NCBI RefSeq assembly: GCF_009914755.1 | Contig: NC_060929.1 | Direction: 5' to 3' (one strand) | Length of the DNA: 64,000 nucleotides | From: the human T2T-CHM13v2.0 reference genome, Homo sapiens | Shown here: piece after piece, positions 20,302 through 25,300 of the stretch | Position numbering within the stretch: position 1 is the first letter of the stretch | How the letters are laid out: every line of letters starts with the position of its first letter | Position numbers and translations under genes: made by a program | Notes under the pieces: model-generated | Seen by the model: only the letters and a program-made list of their open reading frames with translations | What the model was told of the DNA's origin: nothing | Databases searched by the model: none

Positions 20302-20340
<39 letters not shown>

Positions 20341-20487
20341 AAGAACATGCATTGAGATTTTGAAACATGCCCATGGACTACAACGAAAGGTTCTTTTTTT
20401 AAAAAACAAGTTTTCTTTTGTTTTTAATTAGCTCATAATCATTGTACCTATTTATGGGGTGCAGTGTGATGTTTATATATATGTATA

Positions 20488-20525
<38 letters not shown>
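20302..20525. repeat. (TG)n at 20302-20339 and (TA)n/(TG)n at 20473-20525, next to an antisense L1MA 3' fragment (about 20410-20690)
   Basis: Direct inspection. Confidence 0.85.
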
Positions 20526-20530
<5 letters not shown>

Positions 20531-21345
20531 ACAATAAAATCAGAGTAAATACCATATCCATCACCTCAACACTCCTCTTTTCTAGCTATTTTAACTTATA
20601 ATACATTATTGTTGAGTACAGTCACTGCTTTGCAACTGAGCATGAGAATTATCTCTCCTAACTGTAACTTTGTACCCATTGATACCCATTGATAAAGGTT
20701 CATTTAATGTTGGGCACGACTGAGGTTTCTTGCTAATTTTTACCCCACTCCTTTTCCTCATTACACATTCACCAAGTGCTTAGCATGTAACATACACAGA
20801 AGCAGAGTGTTGGCCCATTTTTCAAGTTCCTTGGTTCAAAAACATCCTATTAACCTCAAGTCATCAAAAGGATCTTGATGACATTGAGCTATCCCTTGAA
20901 GTTTTAAAATCAAGGTAGCTCATCTCTGCTAGGTTTTACCTGACACGTATGTCCAAACTTGACTTTGATTAAGTAAAATTTAAGCAGTTTCCTGCTAGTG
21001 CTCTGGATTCTAGCATAAAGTCATTGCTGCAGGTCCTGACCCAATTTTATGACTTGTTTTGTCACAAGATAACTATCTTTTTTTCTGTTTGAGTCTTGGT
21101 GAACTGTCTTCCTCTAAAGAATGAGACCTTGTTTGTTTCTTGCCTCCATCTTCCAGGCACTTAAGGTTGTATTCTAAAACATGACCTAGCACATAGAGCT
21201 CACTTAAAAGTTGTGGTTTATTCTCTTAAATTCTGTTGGATGTTGGATTATGGTAGAGCTGTTTGGGAAGAGGATTGAGTGGTGGGAAAATGGAGTAGGA
21301 AATTGGGTCATGTTATAAAGGACTCATCTGCCTGGGAGCTGGGAT

Positions 21346-22368
21346 TCAGGCACTATCTGGCTCCTCACTAAGTGCCCGTTCTAAGGCAGCTAGCAGGGAG
21401 TGGAGCAAGTGCTCCCAGAAATCATGCCCAATGAAGACATAGAGAACTGGATTGAGACAGCTGTTGATAAAGGCCATAGACAAGGCCAGGGGTCTTAGGA
21501 GTAAGGCCACCTGGTTCAGGCCCTCTCTGTCTTCCCGAAATGATGTGAAGTCCAGCCACAGGGACACTTGCAAGGGCAACCAGCAGAGGAAGAAGGTGGT
21601 TACCACAGTCGCAAGGACCTGGAAGGGTCAGCTAAACTTAACCAGCTGCCTTTCTCTTAACTTCAAGGCTACAAGGATGTAGTAGCCAGTGATGATAGCC
21701 AGAGGGAGAAAGAAGCCAAAGAAAAAGTGGGCTGTTGTGACCAGCGTTTGGTGCCATGGAATGATAATCTCTTTCCAAAGTTGGTGACTTCCTTGAGTTT
21801 CATTCTGCAGATCATACTGGTTGTACAAAGAGGGTGACACTTTCCACCACGAGTTTCCTTGAAGATCAAGTAGGGAACAGAGAAACAAATTGCCAAAAGC
21901 CAGGTCCTCAAGGGCCCCAGAGTTGCCTTTGCTGGTGTGCAATTGTTCCAGGACTAGATTGGCCACAGGATCACAAGTCAGTGGTCCATGGAGATGAGGG
22001 TCAGAAGGAAGACACTGGCCAGAAAGTTAAAAATAGACATGGTGCTATTGAGTTTACAGAGCAGCTGGCCAAAGGGTTACAGAGCTACCATAACCAGCTG
22101 GAGAAGCAGTGGGAAGATGATGATGAAGTCAGCCACGGGCAGGTTGAGGTACCACCCACACCGTGTTGACTGTGCAGGACATGTGGAATCCAACTACCCA
22201 AATGACAAGGCCATTGCCAGCCAAGCCTAGGAAGAAAGTCACTGTGTAGATGATCATGGAAAAGATGTCAAGAGCAGACTTGACCCTCTCCAAAGAGTCA
22301 TCACAATAGTCAAACATGGACGTGGGACTCTCCACAGTCAACAGTGACAATGCAGACACATTCTCCAT
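21346..22368 (-). pseudogene. Disabled class A chemoattractant GPCR, formyl-peptide-receptor/CMKLR-like, single coding exon
   Basis: Stitched frames give TM1 [23 protein letters not shown]2 [12 protein letters not shown]3 LLCKL...ASVFLLTLISMDH*, TM5 FGFFLPLAII, TM6 FFLCWLP, TM7 FINSCLNPVLYVFIGHDF and the tail SLLAALERALSEE. Four internal stops and two frameshifts. Confidence 0.95.
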
Positions 22369-25300
22369 GCTACCTAAAAATAGCCAAGGTATATTTAGGC
22401 TCAAACTTTCAAACTACATAAACTGCTTAAATTATCACCACTTCCTTTCTTATGATGACTGCAGACAGCTTTCATGTCCCTGCTTTAGGATGTGCCATTC
22501 TCTGTTGGTGATATTCCTCCTCCTCCCCCATGTGCTCTTGCTCCTCTTCCTCCTCTTCTTGTTTTCTTATCCATATTCTTAACCACAGTTTTCACCACTT
22601 ATTCTATGCCAGCCACTATGCTAGCTATGTTCCATATATTGCATATCATGAATTAAGCAGCTACTAGGAGTCCAATGTTCTGTTCATATATTGCATTTAA
22701 TTTATTTCCCATAACAAATCTGTCATATGGAAAAGAATTATTATGAATGAGAAAACTAAGGTAAAGGGAGGTTACTAAATTACTGAAAATCAAACATTCA
22801 GCAGTAAAAAAGCAGAAATGAATTTTGACGTTAGTTCTGCTTAATTAAAAATTCATATACTTTACCTGATTTTTTTCTTTTTACTGTATATTCCTCCTTC
22901 AATGGGCTGAAGGGGGGCTCATATTCGTATTTTTAATTTAGTTTACAAAAGGGCTTTCCTGTGCTTCACACTATTTAATAATTTCCAAAATGCCATGTTA
23001 GCTACGTAAGACAAATGTTTTATTATTGAAGTGATTTTTGACATATATGAAAGCAAAGACTGAAAAAGGTTGTTTTCTTTGAGCTGTAGCTCACTGCCTT
23101 AGGAACTAGCAGACCTGGTTCTTGAACCCAAACCTCCTGAAACCAAATCTTATCTTTTCCTCACCTCATTACAATGCTCTTTTTTATGGGTAAAGGACAT
23201 CAGGAGGTGGGTGTCCACCCTGGAGGAAGTGGGATCTCTCCTGGTGACTGACCCTCCAAACTCTCTTAAGGGAAGATGGTCACGTCAGCTGCATTTAGGG
23301 GCCACATGAATTATTGTCTAACCCATATGAATTATTGTTTTCTCATTTCCTTATGGGAAATGCCTGCTGCATATTGTTGGCATTGCTATCTGTTTCTGTC
23401 CTATTTTCCTGTTTCAATTTTTAAGTTCCTCAATGTGTGGGGCCAGTCTTCAATTCTACCTAATGCCTGCTTTTGTTTATGCTGTTCTCGCTACCTAGAA
23501 TGCCTTCCCCTCCACCATTTTCTGTTGGTGAAATCTTGCACACACACATCCTAGTAGACTTACTTGCTTCTTTCTCTGTTTGTTCATAGCACCGGATGTC
23601 TGTTTAATTCTAGCAGTCTTGCCTGCATATTAGAAATGGTTGCTTTGATATCTATCTCAGGAGTCACAGCTTATTCTACTTCTACCACTAAATACCTTAG
23701 GCAAGGCATTTACCCTCTCTGAGCTTTACAGCCTTAATTTTTAAAAGCAATATATAATATTAATACATACCTCAGAGGGTTGTTGTGGTAATATAAGGAA
23801 ATATTTCAGTGAAATATTTAGAAATATATCTGATACATCAAAAACACCCAGCATGTTGGTTATTATTCTTTTTATTGATACCATCATTACTATCCTAATT
23901 TTTGTTTCATGCACCACATTTGATTTATATTAACATTCCATAAACACTTGTTTAATTATTATAGTGCTGATAAAGGATAAAGATTCAATGAGATGATACC
24001 TGTGAGTATAAATTATAGAATCAAGAGTTATATAAAGCAGAATCCTTTTTCTTGAAGGAACCAGTTATTTCCCTTGTTTTAGATGCTTACTTATTTAAGT
24101 GAAGTTTTCCTCTTCTTGCACAATCTCTTCCCAACTTTTCACCCTTCATCTGGCCCCAAATGGCCACCCCCAGACAACTGTGAAACCTGCCTATGCCTCT
24201 CTCAGTAGTGGAACCCCACACACTCACCTTCACCAGCTTGGAGCTCTGCTTCCCTGCTGGGGTTTTATAGCAGCCAAATCCATTTTGGAGGCTTTTGAAT
24301 CTATGGGGCCAAGGGACTCTGAAGGCATCTGTGTCAGTTATCAGACTGGTGAAGTCTCTGTGCTAGGACCTAAGTAATACAGTCGAAAGGAGGAACCTGG
24401 GGGCTCGTGTTGAGGTTTGTCTAAACGCCTAGAATTCTTTTAGGGAGGGAGCTTGGGATACAAACAATTTTTATTCATCAGGGCCTTGAAGTTCAGTGAT
24501 CACTGGTCCGGATAATTAAGACTTTAGGAAATGTGACCTCATCTTTGATGAAATTTATGTCTAAGATTTTGAAACAAATATAAAGACAATTTAAAAGTGC
24601 ATGAGCATAGTAAAGCTTGACGTTAATTACAACAGCAACAGCTAATATTTATGGAGTGCTTATTATAGAGCAGGTTTAACCCCTTCACTATTCTGTACTT
24701 TGGAATCAGAAGGGTGTGATGATAGGATTTTGTAAAAACCACGTCAGAGGATCCCCTGTGGAAACGGAAAGGGTGGTTGCTTAATCACAGACGGCAATGA
24801 GATGATTGAACTTTGTAGGCTTAGTGTTGAGTCTAAACTGTGAGACCAGTCTGTAAAATGAGCTTAATCTAATTGAGCTTTAGCTATAAAATCCGTATAT
24901 ATTCCTCTGAAGCTTAAATAAACCCAGTAAATAAAGGTAATTGGACAACCAGAAAGCATAATACAAATGTGTGATTTACGATTTGGTTTAAAATAGTTGG
25001 ACATTATTAGGATGCAATATTATTAAATAGTATTTGGAAAGGCCGTCCGCATGGGACACTGTGGTAGATGAGAAAACTGATGCTCAGAGAGCTCCTGTCT
25101 GTTTATGGCTTGGTTGTGATGGTGAGGGATCTCCCCCATGTGCAGAAAGTCAGAAGTGGATGCTTCCTCAATGATGAGAGGGGCAACTTTGTGGGAGGAA
25201 CAAAGAGTGAGTGAAGTTTTAAAATTGCAAGACAGGGGAAAGGATAGTGTTGGAGGTAAATGTTGAATACAAATATATGAACGTAAATCTGAATTTAAGT

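What the first reader, a model, noticed from the sequence alone, without database searches (positions are those of the whole stretch)
21346..22380. Fossil FPR-like chemoattractant receptor: candidate lost gene rather than retrocopy
Seen: a full 7TM span of about 340 codons with a 4-bp duplication (ccac ccac, 22152-22159), stops at 22077-79, 21978-80 (D-H-stop at the DRY/DRC position), 21954-56 and 21628-30, and a frameshift near 21830-21850. TTTTTAG|GTAGC-ATGG places a splice acceptor 5 nt before a good Kozak ATG, and I see no poly(A) tail or TSD. Known: [11 protein letters not shown] and NSCLNP.LYVF.G.DF...LERALSE are typical of FPR1/FPR2, whose coding exon follows a 5'UTR intron, but the human FPR cluster is on chr19. 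Inference: this is a once-functional paralog at its native site between SPINK1 and SCGB3A2. It may be intact in other mammals, which would make it a poorly described innate-sensing receptor lineage.
Basis: partly seen in the sequence, partly recalled or inferred. Interest (0 to 1): 0.8.

Follow-up and report, generated by a model that had tools for sequence, protein, structure and literature searches.

The report
Dead human copy of unnamed FPR-like receptor
This is the decayed human remnant of a chemoattractant-receptor gene that is a separate old branch of the formyl-peptide-receptor family, still looks intact in marsupials, and is mislabelled as a copy of FPR1.

Summary
Window 21346-22368 (minus strand) is a 340-codon class A GPCR remnant with four in-frame stops, a 4-bp duplication and a 1-bp deletion, at the stated places. 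It is annotated (LOC100288484, "FPR1 pseudogene"), but it is not a copy of FPR1. It is 36% identical in protein to human FPR1 and FPR2. At DNA level it matches chr19 FPR loci only in 82-94-nt patches. In trees it groups with a macaque and a lemur gene model, and that group is sister to five full-length marsupial "FPR2-like" proteins (98/98 and 98/95 support). It lies apart from FPR1-3. AU tests of the rival placement with FPR1-3 are borderline (p 0.080 and 0.043). No full-length placental member turned up in two large protein searches. An acceptor-like site lies 5 nt before the ATG, as in paralogues, and there is no poly(A) tail or target-site duplication. Best reading: a unitary, unprocessed pseudogene of an unnamed therian receptor lineage (about 0.7). 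Synteny was tested only at chromosome level in one marsupial. Living members keep one of three formyl-binding residues. Moderate interest.

The parts
21346..22368 (-). Whole remnant of the single coding exon: 340 codons when read through with X at each break, all seven TM segments recognisable
   Evidence: Pfam 7tm_1; solved-structure searches; tblastn of six relatives covers 22368-21316 in three segments
22369..22380 (-). Acceptor-like site tttttag|gtagc ending 5 nt before the ATG
   Evidence: Comparable pyrimidine tract plus AG lies 3-14 nt before the ATG at six human paralogue loci I take to be FPR1, FPR2, FPR3, CMKLR1, CMKLR2 and C3AR1. Control: 140 of 2396 ATGs in the window have such a site
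22366..22368 (-). Start codon (MENVS...). Aligns with MENMT/MENMS inside marsupial models and with MEKVS at the start of unnamed fragment P0371
22152..22159 (-). gtgg|gtgg 4-bp duplication (+1 frame). The macaque and lemur models read straight through this point
22077..22079 (-). In-frame TAA plus a three-codon deficit: human VAL*PFG against macaque VALQYHWPFG
21978..21986 (-). GAC CAC TGA = D-H-stop at the DRC motif. His is shared with the macaque model (DHC). The lemur, marsupial and echidna rows have DRC
21954..21956 (-). In-frame TAG where relatives have Trp (PIWS / PVWS / PLWA)
21825..21852 (-). Zone of the second frame switch (-1, my placement near 21843). The macaque model stays in the shifted frame to 21828, so this change is probably shared with macaque
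21628..21630 (-). In-frame TGA where relatives have Arg or Gln before PF(R/Q)V at the start of TM6
21346..21348 (-). Terminal stop after ...LERALSEEPDSA
21217..21222 (-). AATAAA 124-129 nt after the stop codon, with no A-run behind it. Possible native polyadenylation signal
   Evidence: read directly; not tested further

Best explanation
This is a unitary, unprocessed pseudogene: the dead human copy of an unnamed branch of the FPR family of class A, presumably Gi-coupled, chemoattractant receptors. The branch separated from the FPR1-3 line before placentals and marsupials split. It is still encoded as full-length receptors in marsupials and has decayed in primates. In the human lineage it cannot make a receptor. 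It carries four stops and two frame changes. It has also lost the Arg of DRC, the ECL2 disulfide Cys and three codons at the HWPFG turn. Shown: the lesions, the family, the distance from every human paralogue, the tree position. Inferred: past function, timing of death (at the latest before the human-macaque split), the native site, and that the ligand was not an N-formyl peptide.
For: (1) No parent gene in the human genome. The best non-self protein matches are 42-45% identical on chr19, 40% on chr12 and 36% on chr19 and chr14, among 64 matches at E<=0.001. Over the full length it is 36% identical to FPR1 (117/322) and FPR2 (116/322). DNA similarity is limited to three patches of 82-94 nt at 74-78%.
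(2) Tree position. Human, macaque model and Prolemur model form a clade at 100/100. That clade is sister to five marsupial proteins at 98/98 (46 rows) and 98/95 (52 rows). FastTree on 76 rows gives the same topology at 94. The three chr19 loci I take to be FPR1-3 group with other marsupial proteins instead (91/84, 96/91).
(3) Marsupial members. They are 360-393 aa, 76-86% identical in 10 of 10 pairs across four named genera plus one unnamed row, and carry the class A motifs. The motif LW[KQ].I.IPR[YC] is in 5 of 5 of them and in Prolemur. It is in 0 of 2 monotreme group-A rows and 0 of 4 human FPR1-3/GPR32 rows.
(4) Decay looks independent among placental copies. At the ECL2 Cys (FPR1 C176) the lemur keeps C, human has L, P0260 has R and P0349 has Y. 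DRC is kept in lemur. D2.50 is lost only in P0371.
(5) Unprocessed features. There is an acceptor-like site 5 nt before the ATG, as at six paralogue loci, against a 5.8% background. There is no A-run after AATAAA and no target-site duplication.
(6) In two marsupials the member lies on a different contig from FPR-type genes: Trichosurus 445,409,394 against 463,068,544, Dromiciops 701,582,917 against 670,775,900. The Gracilinanus member shares its contig length with Gracilinanus GPR151. GPR151 was found here about 1.3 Mb from the pseudogene.
Against: AU tests do not clearly reject holding the primate copies with FPR1-3: the cost is 18.3 lnL with p 0.080, and 14.0 lnL with p 0.043 when P0267 is added. 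The groups were named after the tree was seen. The bootstrap of the 52-row tree had not fully settled.
Synteny is not shown beyond one chromosome-level coincidence. Macrotis has an FPR-type gene and GPR151 on one 934-Mb contig, so such coincidences are cheap.
Monotreme relatives lie on other contigs than GPR151.
No intact placental member was found, so past function in placentals is inferred, not seen.
All non-human rows are gene predictions. The macaque and lemur rows are gapped models. No DNA of other species was available, so there is no dN/dS. Human-macaque protein identity of 88% (257/292) is about what I would expect for neutral drift (recalled divergence), which says nothing about earlier constraint.
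Confidence: 0.7

Rival explanations
1. Functional retrogene that later died. A spliced mRNA of an ancestral FPR-cluster gene was reinserted at this chr5 site in the therian stem. It acquired expression, served as a receptor for a long time and then decayed in primates. It would still be a lost gene, but processed in origin rather than a DNA-level paralogue.
For: The coding region of the whole family is one exon, so an intact retrocopy is easy to make (ORFs). The copy lies far from the chr19 cluster. In monotremes all relatives found share one contig: echidna 21,663,010 (P0010, P0029, P0031) and platypus 110,293,030 (P0025, P0030). That fits a single ancestral cluster from which this copy left.
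Against: A pyrimidine tract plus AG sits 5 nt before the ATG, where six paralogue loci have theirs. A processed copy should carry 5'UTR exon sequence there. This is a 5.8% coincidence by my control. There is no A-run after the AATAAA and no target-site duplication, though both would have faded over more than 100 million years.
Confidence: 0.15
2. Dead-on-arrival duplicate. A placental-stem copy (DNA or processed) of the ancestor of FPR1-3 never functioned and drifted neutrally. Its grouping with the marsupial proteins is a tree artefact of long branches.
For: AU tests leave this placement open or only marginally rejected (p 0.080, 0.043). The FPR1-3 stem is long, at 0.80-0.86 changes per column. 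No intact placental member was found. The location is outside the cluster.
Against: Support of 98/98 and 98/95 for the marsupial sister group in two row sets. The shared LWK.I.IPRY motif. Only six disabling changes in 1023 nt. My rough estimate, from recalled rates, is more than twice that for 100 million or more years of neutral drift. The lemur model keeps DRC, D2.50 and the ECL2 Cys, and the other copies lost that Cys by different substitutions. None of the lesion sites I checked is shared between the lemur and human rows.
Confidence: 0.1
3. The database label is right: it is a pseudogene derived from FPR1 itself.
For: The best solved-structure match of the C-terminal 167 residues is FPR1, at 1.1e-28, with FPR2 at 1.9e-28. 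The LERAL(S/T)E tail is shared.
Against: The middle piece matches SSTR5 and the chemerin receptors better than FPR1. The N-terminal piece matches C3aR best. Full-length identity to FPR1 is 36%. DNA identity is 74-78% over fewer than 100 nt. The three chr19 loci form their own 100/100 clade without it.
Confidence: 0.02

Closest known systems
FPR1, FPR2, FPR3 (human chr19 cluster)
   Same: Same superclade in the trees (98/97 and 99/100). Single coding exon with an acceptor a few nt before the ATG. Shared [25 protein letters not shown] and LERAL.E.
   Different: 36% identity and a different chromosome. A three-residue longer ECL2. Two of the three residues that bind the N-formyl group in FPR1 are absent in every member examined: D106 is I/L/N/G and R201 is L/F/V, while R205 is kept except in human, P0260 and P0349. 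The triad is taken from the abstract of PMC9445081.
Marsupial 'N-formyl peptide receptor 2-like' proteins P0006 (Trichosurus), P0008 (Gracilinanus), P0009 (Petaurus), P0023 (Dromiciops) and unnamed P0007
   Same: Sister group of the primate copies. 45-46% identical to the human read-through. Shared LWK.I.IPRY motif. MEN start aligned.
   Different: Full-length and motif-complete, with a predicted 25-residue N-terminal extension. Orthology rests on the tree and on one chromosome-level coincidence.
GPR32 and GPR32P1 (chr19)
   Same: On the same side of the FPR superclade in the 46-row tree (96/84). [quoted passage not shown]
   Different: GPR32 sits on a very long branch (1.98; a stem of 1.44 once P0283 is added). 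It groups with monotreme or unnamed rows, not with the chr5 copies. Identity is 36% over the C-terminal piece.
GPR33 (chr14), a chemoattractant receptor inactivated in humans
   Same: The same kind of event: a chemoattractant-receptor gene dead in the human genome. The chr14 locus here has one in-frame stop (segments of 163 and 193 aa). That it is the known GPR33 pseudogene is recalled.
   Different: GPR33 falls near the chemerin receptors, outside the FPR superclade. It has one lesion here, against six in the chr5 copy.

Membership tests
Class A (rhodopsin-like) GPCR, Pfam PF00001 7tm_1 | Profile match above the curated cut-off | tested here: met
   Middle piece 58.2 bits and C-terminal piece 55.8 bits, against a cut-off of 30.5. 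The 71-residue N-terminal piece has no hit.
Class A (rhodopsin-like) GPCR, Pfam PF00001 7tm_1 | Intact reading frame with D2.50, DRY/DRC, the TM3-ECL2 disulfide, CWxP and NPxxY | tested here: not met
   Four stops and two frame changes. DRC reads D-H-stop and the ECL2 Cys is Leu. D2.50, CWLP and NPVLY remain.
FPR family (FPR1-3 / GPR32 superclade) | Falls inside the superclade in a tree with CMKLR1/2, GPR33, C3AR1, C5AR1 and PTGDR2 as alternatives | tested here: met
   Superclade support is 98/97 and 99/100. The names of the human rows are recalled from place and sequence.
FPR family (FPR1-3 / GPR32 superclade) | N-formyl recognition triad D106, R201, R205 (abstract of PMC9445081) | tested here: not met
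   Position 106 is I, L, N or G. Position 201 is L, F or V. Position 205 is R in lemur, macaque, marsupials and echidna, but H in human and P0349 and L in P0260.
FPR1-derived pseudogene (the RefSeq label) | FPR1 is the nearest paralogue, with extended DNA similarity | tested here: not met
   36% protein identity. DNA patches of 82-94 nt at 74-78%. FPR1-3 form their own 100/100 clade.
Processed pseudogene (retrocopy) | Poly(A) tail, target-site duplication, 5'UTR exon sequence fused upstream | tested here: inconclusive
   No A-run and no flanking repeat. An acceptor-like site stands where 5'UTR sequence would be. At this age a tail and a target-site duplication would have decayed anyway.
Unitary pseudogene (lost gene) | No functional copy of the same lineage elsewhere in the genome | tested here: met
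   The next best protein match in the whole genome is 45% identical. There is no second DNA copy.
Unitary pseudogene (lost gene) | Intact orthologue in another species | tested here: met
   Five full-length marsupial proteins form the sister group. Orthology is by tree only, and AU p for the rival placement is 0.080 and 0.043.
Unitary pseudogene (lost gene) | Conserved synteny of the orthologue | tested here: inconclusive
   One of one testable marsupial species (Gracilinanus) has the member and GPR151 on contigs of identical length. The other Australidelphian GPR151 entries were merged into one cluster. Monotreme relatives are on other contigs than GPR151.
Unitary pseudogene (lost gene) | Purifying selection before the loss (dN/dS below 1) | not testable with these tools
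   No DNA of other mammals can be fetched here. Only protein-level branch lengths are available.

The most novel reading that the evidence does not exclude
Therian mammals had, and marsupials still have, a further FPR-family receptor besides FPR1-3 and GPR32. It does not read N-formyl groups in the FPR1 manner, having one of the three contact residues. It was lost several times independently in placentals rather than once, with the human copy dying before the human-macaque split. A bolder and much less likely extension: its position next to the secretoglobin gene SCGB3A2 reflects a ligand-receptor pairing. I recall reports of a secretoglobin acting on FPR2, but no call here tested this.
Probability: 0.35. 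Interest if true: 0.5.

Novelty: new member of a known kind. Interest (0 to 1): 0.38.

Why it matters
The locus itself is already annotated, so its existence is not new. Three things change. First, the label 'FPR1 pseudogene' is misleading: the sequence records the loss of a separate receptor lineage, not a spare copy of FPR1. Second, marsupial proteins now named 'FPR2-like' would have a placental counterpart and deserve their own name. One survey had tentatively hung marsupial and monotreme genes on GPR32 (PMC6504862). Third, the living members lack two of the three formyl-contact residues, so they are orphan receptors worth deorphanising in marsupial immunity. For human biology the practical effect is small. 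The gene is thoroughly dead, and no close paralogue exists that it could be confused with in read mapping.

Tried and rejected
1. Recent FPR1 copy: rejected by identity, DNA search and trees.
2. A search for intact placental orthologues found none. The fragment search gave 19 proteins at E<=1e-10 among 2626 candidates. The profile search gave 803 at E<=1e-30 among 8000 scored, with the top 120 seen. An exhaustive phmmer run against 1.84 billion representatives gave 129 at E<=1e-30, with the top 150 seen. Only the macaque and Prolemur models and three unnamed fragments of 123-171 aa are close. Limits: representatives stand for clusters at 50% identity, so longer members hidden behind P0005 cannot be excluded. 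Species annotated as pseudogenes leave no protein.
3. Synteny by contig-length fingerprint with GPR151 as probe. It was informative for Gracilinanus only. Trichosurus, Petaurus and Dromiciops GPR151 were not listed separately.
4. An ECL2 three-residue length difference was considered as a marker of the lineage. I dropped it, because marsupial FPR-type proteins (for example P0011) have the longer form too.
6. Literature (full-text library of the tool only). 'LOC100288484' gave 0 papers. 'formyl peptide receptor' plus 'unitary pseudogene' gave 0. 'FPR1 pseudogene' gave 2 papers with 1 listed, about FPR1 loss on chr19 in New World monkeys (passages read). Searches gave nothing on this locus. Supplements were not opened.
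7. One search was a frame slip on my part, corrected.
Full report
WHAT IS THERE. On the minus strand of window 21346-22368 lies the remnant of one coding exon of a class A GPCR. It reads in three pieces. Piece A runs 22368-22156 (71 residues, MENVS...TVNTVW). Piece B runs 22154-21834. Piece C runs 21846-21346. A gtgg|gtgg duplication at 22159-22152 separates A from B. A -1 change separates B from C: tblastn of six relatives brackets it between 21852 and 21825, and I place it near 21843. A and C are the same frame, so the two changes cancel. In-frame stops are TAA 22079-22077, TGA 21980-21978, TAG 21956-21954 and TGA 21630-21628. The closing TGA is at 21348-21346. The TGA at 21980 follows GAC-CAC, so the DRC motif reads D-H-stop. 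Pieces B and C match Pfam 7tm_1 at E 1.1e-15 and 6.2e-15; piece A has no Pfam hit.

IT IS NOT A COPY OF FPR1. Against solved structures, piece C matches FPR1 and FPR2 best (1.1e-28, 1.9e-28). Piece B matches SSTR5 and the chemerin receptors best (about 1e-14), with FPR1 only at 1.4e-10. Piece A matches C3aR and FPR2 (about 5e-9 to 9e-9).

A six-frame search of the window's own genome with piece C gave 64 matches at E<=0.001. Apart from itself, the best are three chr19 loci at 44, 45 and 42% identity. Next come chr12 at 40%, and chr19 and chr14 at 36%. From place and sequence I take these to be FPR3, FPR2, FPR1, CMKLR1, GPR32 and GPR33. These names are recalled. The FPR1 row is supported by the RGIIR motif at residues 201-205 and by D106.

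Over the full length the human read-through is 36% identical to FPR1 (117/322) and to FPR2 (116/322). A DNA search of the genome found only three patches of 82-94 nt at 74-78% identity in the chr19 loci. So the RefSeq name 'formyl peptide receptor 1 pseudogene' describes family resemblance, not descent.

RELATIVES ELSEWHERE. Searching 5.8 billion proteins with piece C (longer proteins only) gave 19 hits at E<=1e-10 among 2626 candidates.
- A partial Macaca fascicularis model (P0004, 303 aa, 85% identical).
- A Prolemur simus model (P0005, 315 aa, 64%).
- Marsupial 'FPR2-like' proteins (49%).
- An echidna protein (46%).

A profile of seven of these (A1) gave 803 hits at E<=1e-30 among 8000 scored candidates. 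The top ten were five marsupial proteins (Trichosurus, Gracilinanus, Dromiciops, Petaurus and one unnamed), echidna, platypus, one unnamed row, and the macaque and Prolemur models. No other placental protein came near.

An exhaustive phmmer run of P0005 against 1.84 billion cluster representatives gave 129 hits at E<=1e-30. It added only three unnamed fragments: P0260 (171 aa, 75% to the human read-through), P0371 (123 aa, 70%, starting MEKVS) and P0349 (141 aa, 58%, visibly mangled).

The macaque and lemur models have internal gaps at or near the human lesion sites. They look like gene predictions stepping over damage.

TREES. I read the human gene through with X at each break, inside scripts only. 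I built trees with the human paralogues, the hits above and chemerin-receptor outgroups.
- The careful 46-row tree gives human plus macaque 100/99, plus Prolemur 100/100. That clade is sister to the five marsupial proteins at 98/98. FPR1-3 form their own 100/100 clade, which joins a second set of nine marsupial proteins at 91/84. The whole FPR superclade has 98/97.
- A 76-row FastTree with 30 unnamed representatives added keeps the topology (94).
- A careful 52-row tree gives 98/95 for primates plus marsupials, 96/91 for FPR1-3 plus the other marsupial set, and 99/100 for the superclade. Its bootstrap had not fully settled.

Against this, AU tests of the rival placement are borderline. Holding the three primate rows with FPR1-3 costs 18.3 lnL, p 0.080. 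With P0267 added to break the long FPR stem it costs 14.0 lnL, p 0.043. I named the groups after seeing the tree. The rival is disfavoured, not excluded.

OTHER SUPPORT FOR A ONCE-LIVING GENE. The five marsupial proteins are 360-393 aa and 76-86% identical in all 10 pairs. They carry GN..V, LA.AD, the TM3 and ECL2 cysteines, DRC, CW.P and NP..Y; strict patterns missed one motif each in two rows. The motif LW[KQ].I.IPR[YC] after ECL2 is in 5 of 5 of them and in Prolemur. It is decayed to IPWH in human and macaque. It is absent from 2 of 2 monotreme group-A rows and 4 of 4 human FPR1-3/GPR32 rows.

Damage differs between placental copies. At the ECL2 Cys the lemur has C, human L, P0260 R and P0349 Y. 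DRC is intact in the lemur and reads DH in human and macaque. D2.50 is lost only in P0371.

Compared with the macaque model, the 4-bp duplication, the TAA with its three-codon deficit, the TGA at DRC and the TAG are on the human side. The macaque model follows the shifted frame to 21828, past the point where lemur and possum leave it. The -1 change is therefore probably shared, and the gene was dead before the human-macaque split. This is inference from protein models, not from macaque DNA.

Human-macaque identity of 88% (257/292) is about what neutral drift would give, by recalled divergence figures.

PROCESSED OR NOT. The ATG is preceded by ctatttttag|gtagc. Six human paralogue loci have a pyrimidine tract plus AG 3-14 nt before their ATG: FPR1 11, FPR2 14, FPR3 10, CMKLR1 3, CMKLR2 7 and C3AR1 10. 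GPR32 shows none. That these are the real acceptors is recalled for FPR1 and inferred for the rest. As a control, 140 of 2396 ATGs in the window (5.8%) have such a site by my rule. An AATAAA at 21222-21217 is not followed by an A-run. No flanking direct repeat looks like a target-site duplication among the 20 shown of 33 families. This favours an unprocessed gene. A very old functional retrogene cannot be excluded.

SYNTENY, THE WEAK POINT. No vertebrate DNA other than the window's own genome can be reached, so I used contig lengths in the protein tables as fingerprints.
- In Trichosurus and Dromiciops the clade member and the FPR-type genes lie on different contigs: 445,409,394 against 463,068,544, and 701,582,917 against 670,775,900.
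- I took GPR151, a single-exon gene, from chr5:147.05 Mb of this genome, about 1.3 Mb from the pseudogene. I chose it because I recall that its linkage to SPINK1 is kept in mouse.
- Gracilinanus GPR151 lies on a contig of 725,203,407 bases, the same length as that of the Gracilinanus clade member. This is chromosome-level agreement in the one species that could be tested.
- The other Australidelphian GPR151 entries were merged in one cluster.
- Macrotis has GPR151 and an FPR-type gene on one 934-Mb contig, which shows how cheap such agreement is.
- Platypus and echidna relatives are on other contigs than their GPR151 (110,293,030 against 125,040,914; 21,663,010 against 136,327,385). All monotreme relatives share one contig per species.

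LIKELY WORKING OF THE LIVING FORM. By family it would be a chemoattractant-type class A receptor, presumably Gi-coupled like its solved relatives (inference). In FPR1 the N-formyl group is held by D106, R201 and R205 (abstract of PMC9445081). In this lineage position 106 is I or L (placental copies), N (marsupials) or G (echidna). Position 201 is L, F or V. Only R205 is kept: lemur, macaque, marsupials and echidna have R, while human and P0349 have H and P0260 has L. So the ligand was probably not an N-formyl peptide read in the FPR1 way. The human copy can make no receptor.

IN PRINT. 'LOC100288484' gave 0 papers. 'formyl peptide receptor' with 'unitary pseudogene' gave 0. 'FPR1 pseudogene' led only to a paper on chr19 FPR1 loss in New World monkeys (PMC10566242, passages read). 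[quoted passage not shown] It does not mention a human chr5 counterpart in the passages I saw. Its supplements were not opened. The searches cover only the tool's library.

VERDICT. This is an annotated but mislabelled unitary pseudogene of a separate therian FPR-family lineage with living marsupial members (confidence about 0.7). Native-site synteny, selection history and the pattern of placental loss remain to be shown. Interest is moderate.

Noticed in passing
window 21358-22251 versus 21346-22368: The RefSeq pseudogene span given by the hub omits the first 117 nt of the reading frame (including the ATG at 22368-22366) and the last 12 nt.
   Followed up: yes
window 22152-22159 and about 21843: The two human frame changes (+4 and -1) cancel, so the N-terminal 71 codons and the C-terminal 166 codons are in the same frame and only the middle third is offset.
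   Followed up: yes
window 20302-20527: A (TG)n run followed by a (TA)n-rich microsatellite, about 0.8 kb downstream of the pseudogene's stop codon (family D1).
   Followed up: no
window 22495-22560: A CCTCCTC-rich low-complexity stretch about 130 nt upstream of the ATG. On the minus strand it reads as a Glu/Gly-rich open frame. No function tested.
   Followed up: no
proteins P0010, P0029, P0031 (echidna); P0025, P0030 (platypus): All monotreme FPR-like proteins found share one contig per species (21,663,010 and 110,293,030 bases). This suggests a single cluster in monotremes, whereas therians have the lineage studied here on a separate chromosome.
   Followed up: partly
L007 (own genome, chr14:25.68 Mb): The receptor frame at this locus is split by one in-frame stop into 163 and 193 residues. 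From memory this is the known human GPR33 pseudogene allele.
   Followed up: no
L040 (own genome, chr5:147,140,001-147,150,000): Two long open frames of 393 and 886 residues that look like LINE-1 ORF1 and part of ORF2. The label is recalled and not tested.
   Followed up: no
L006 (own genome, chr19:53.86 Mb): Unlike six other family loci, the locus I take to be GPR32 shows no pyrimidine tract plus AG within 14 nt upstream of its first ATG.
   Followed up: no
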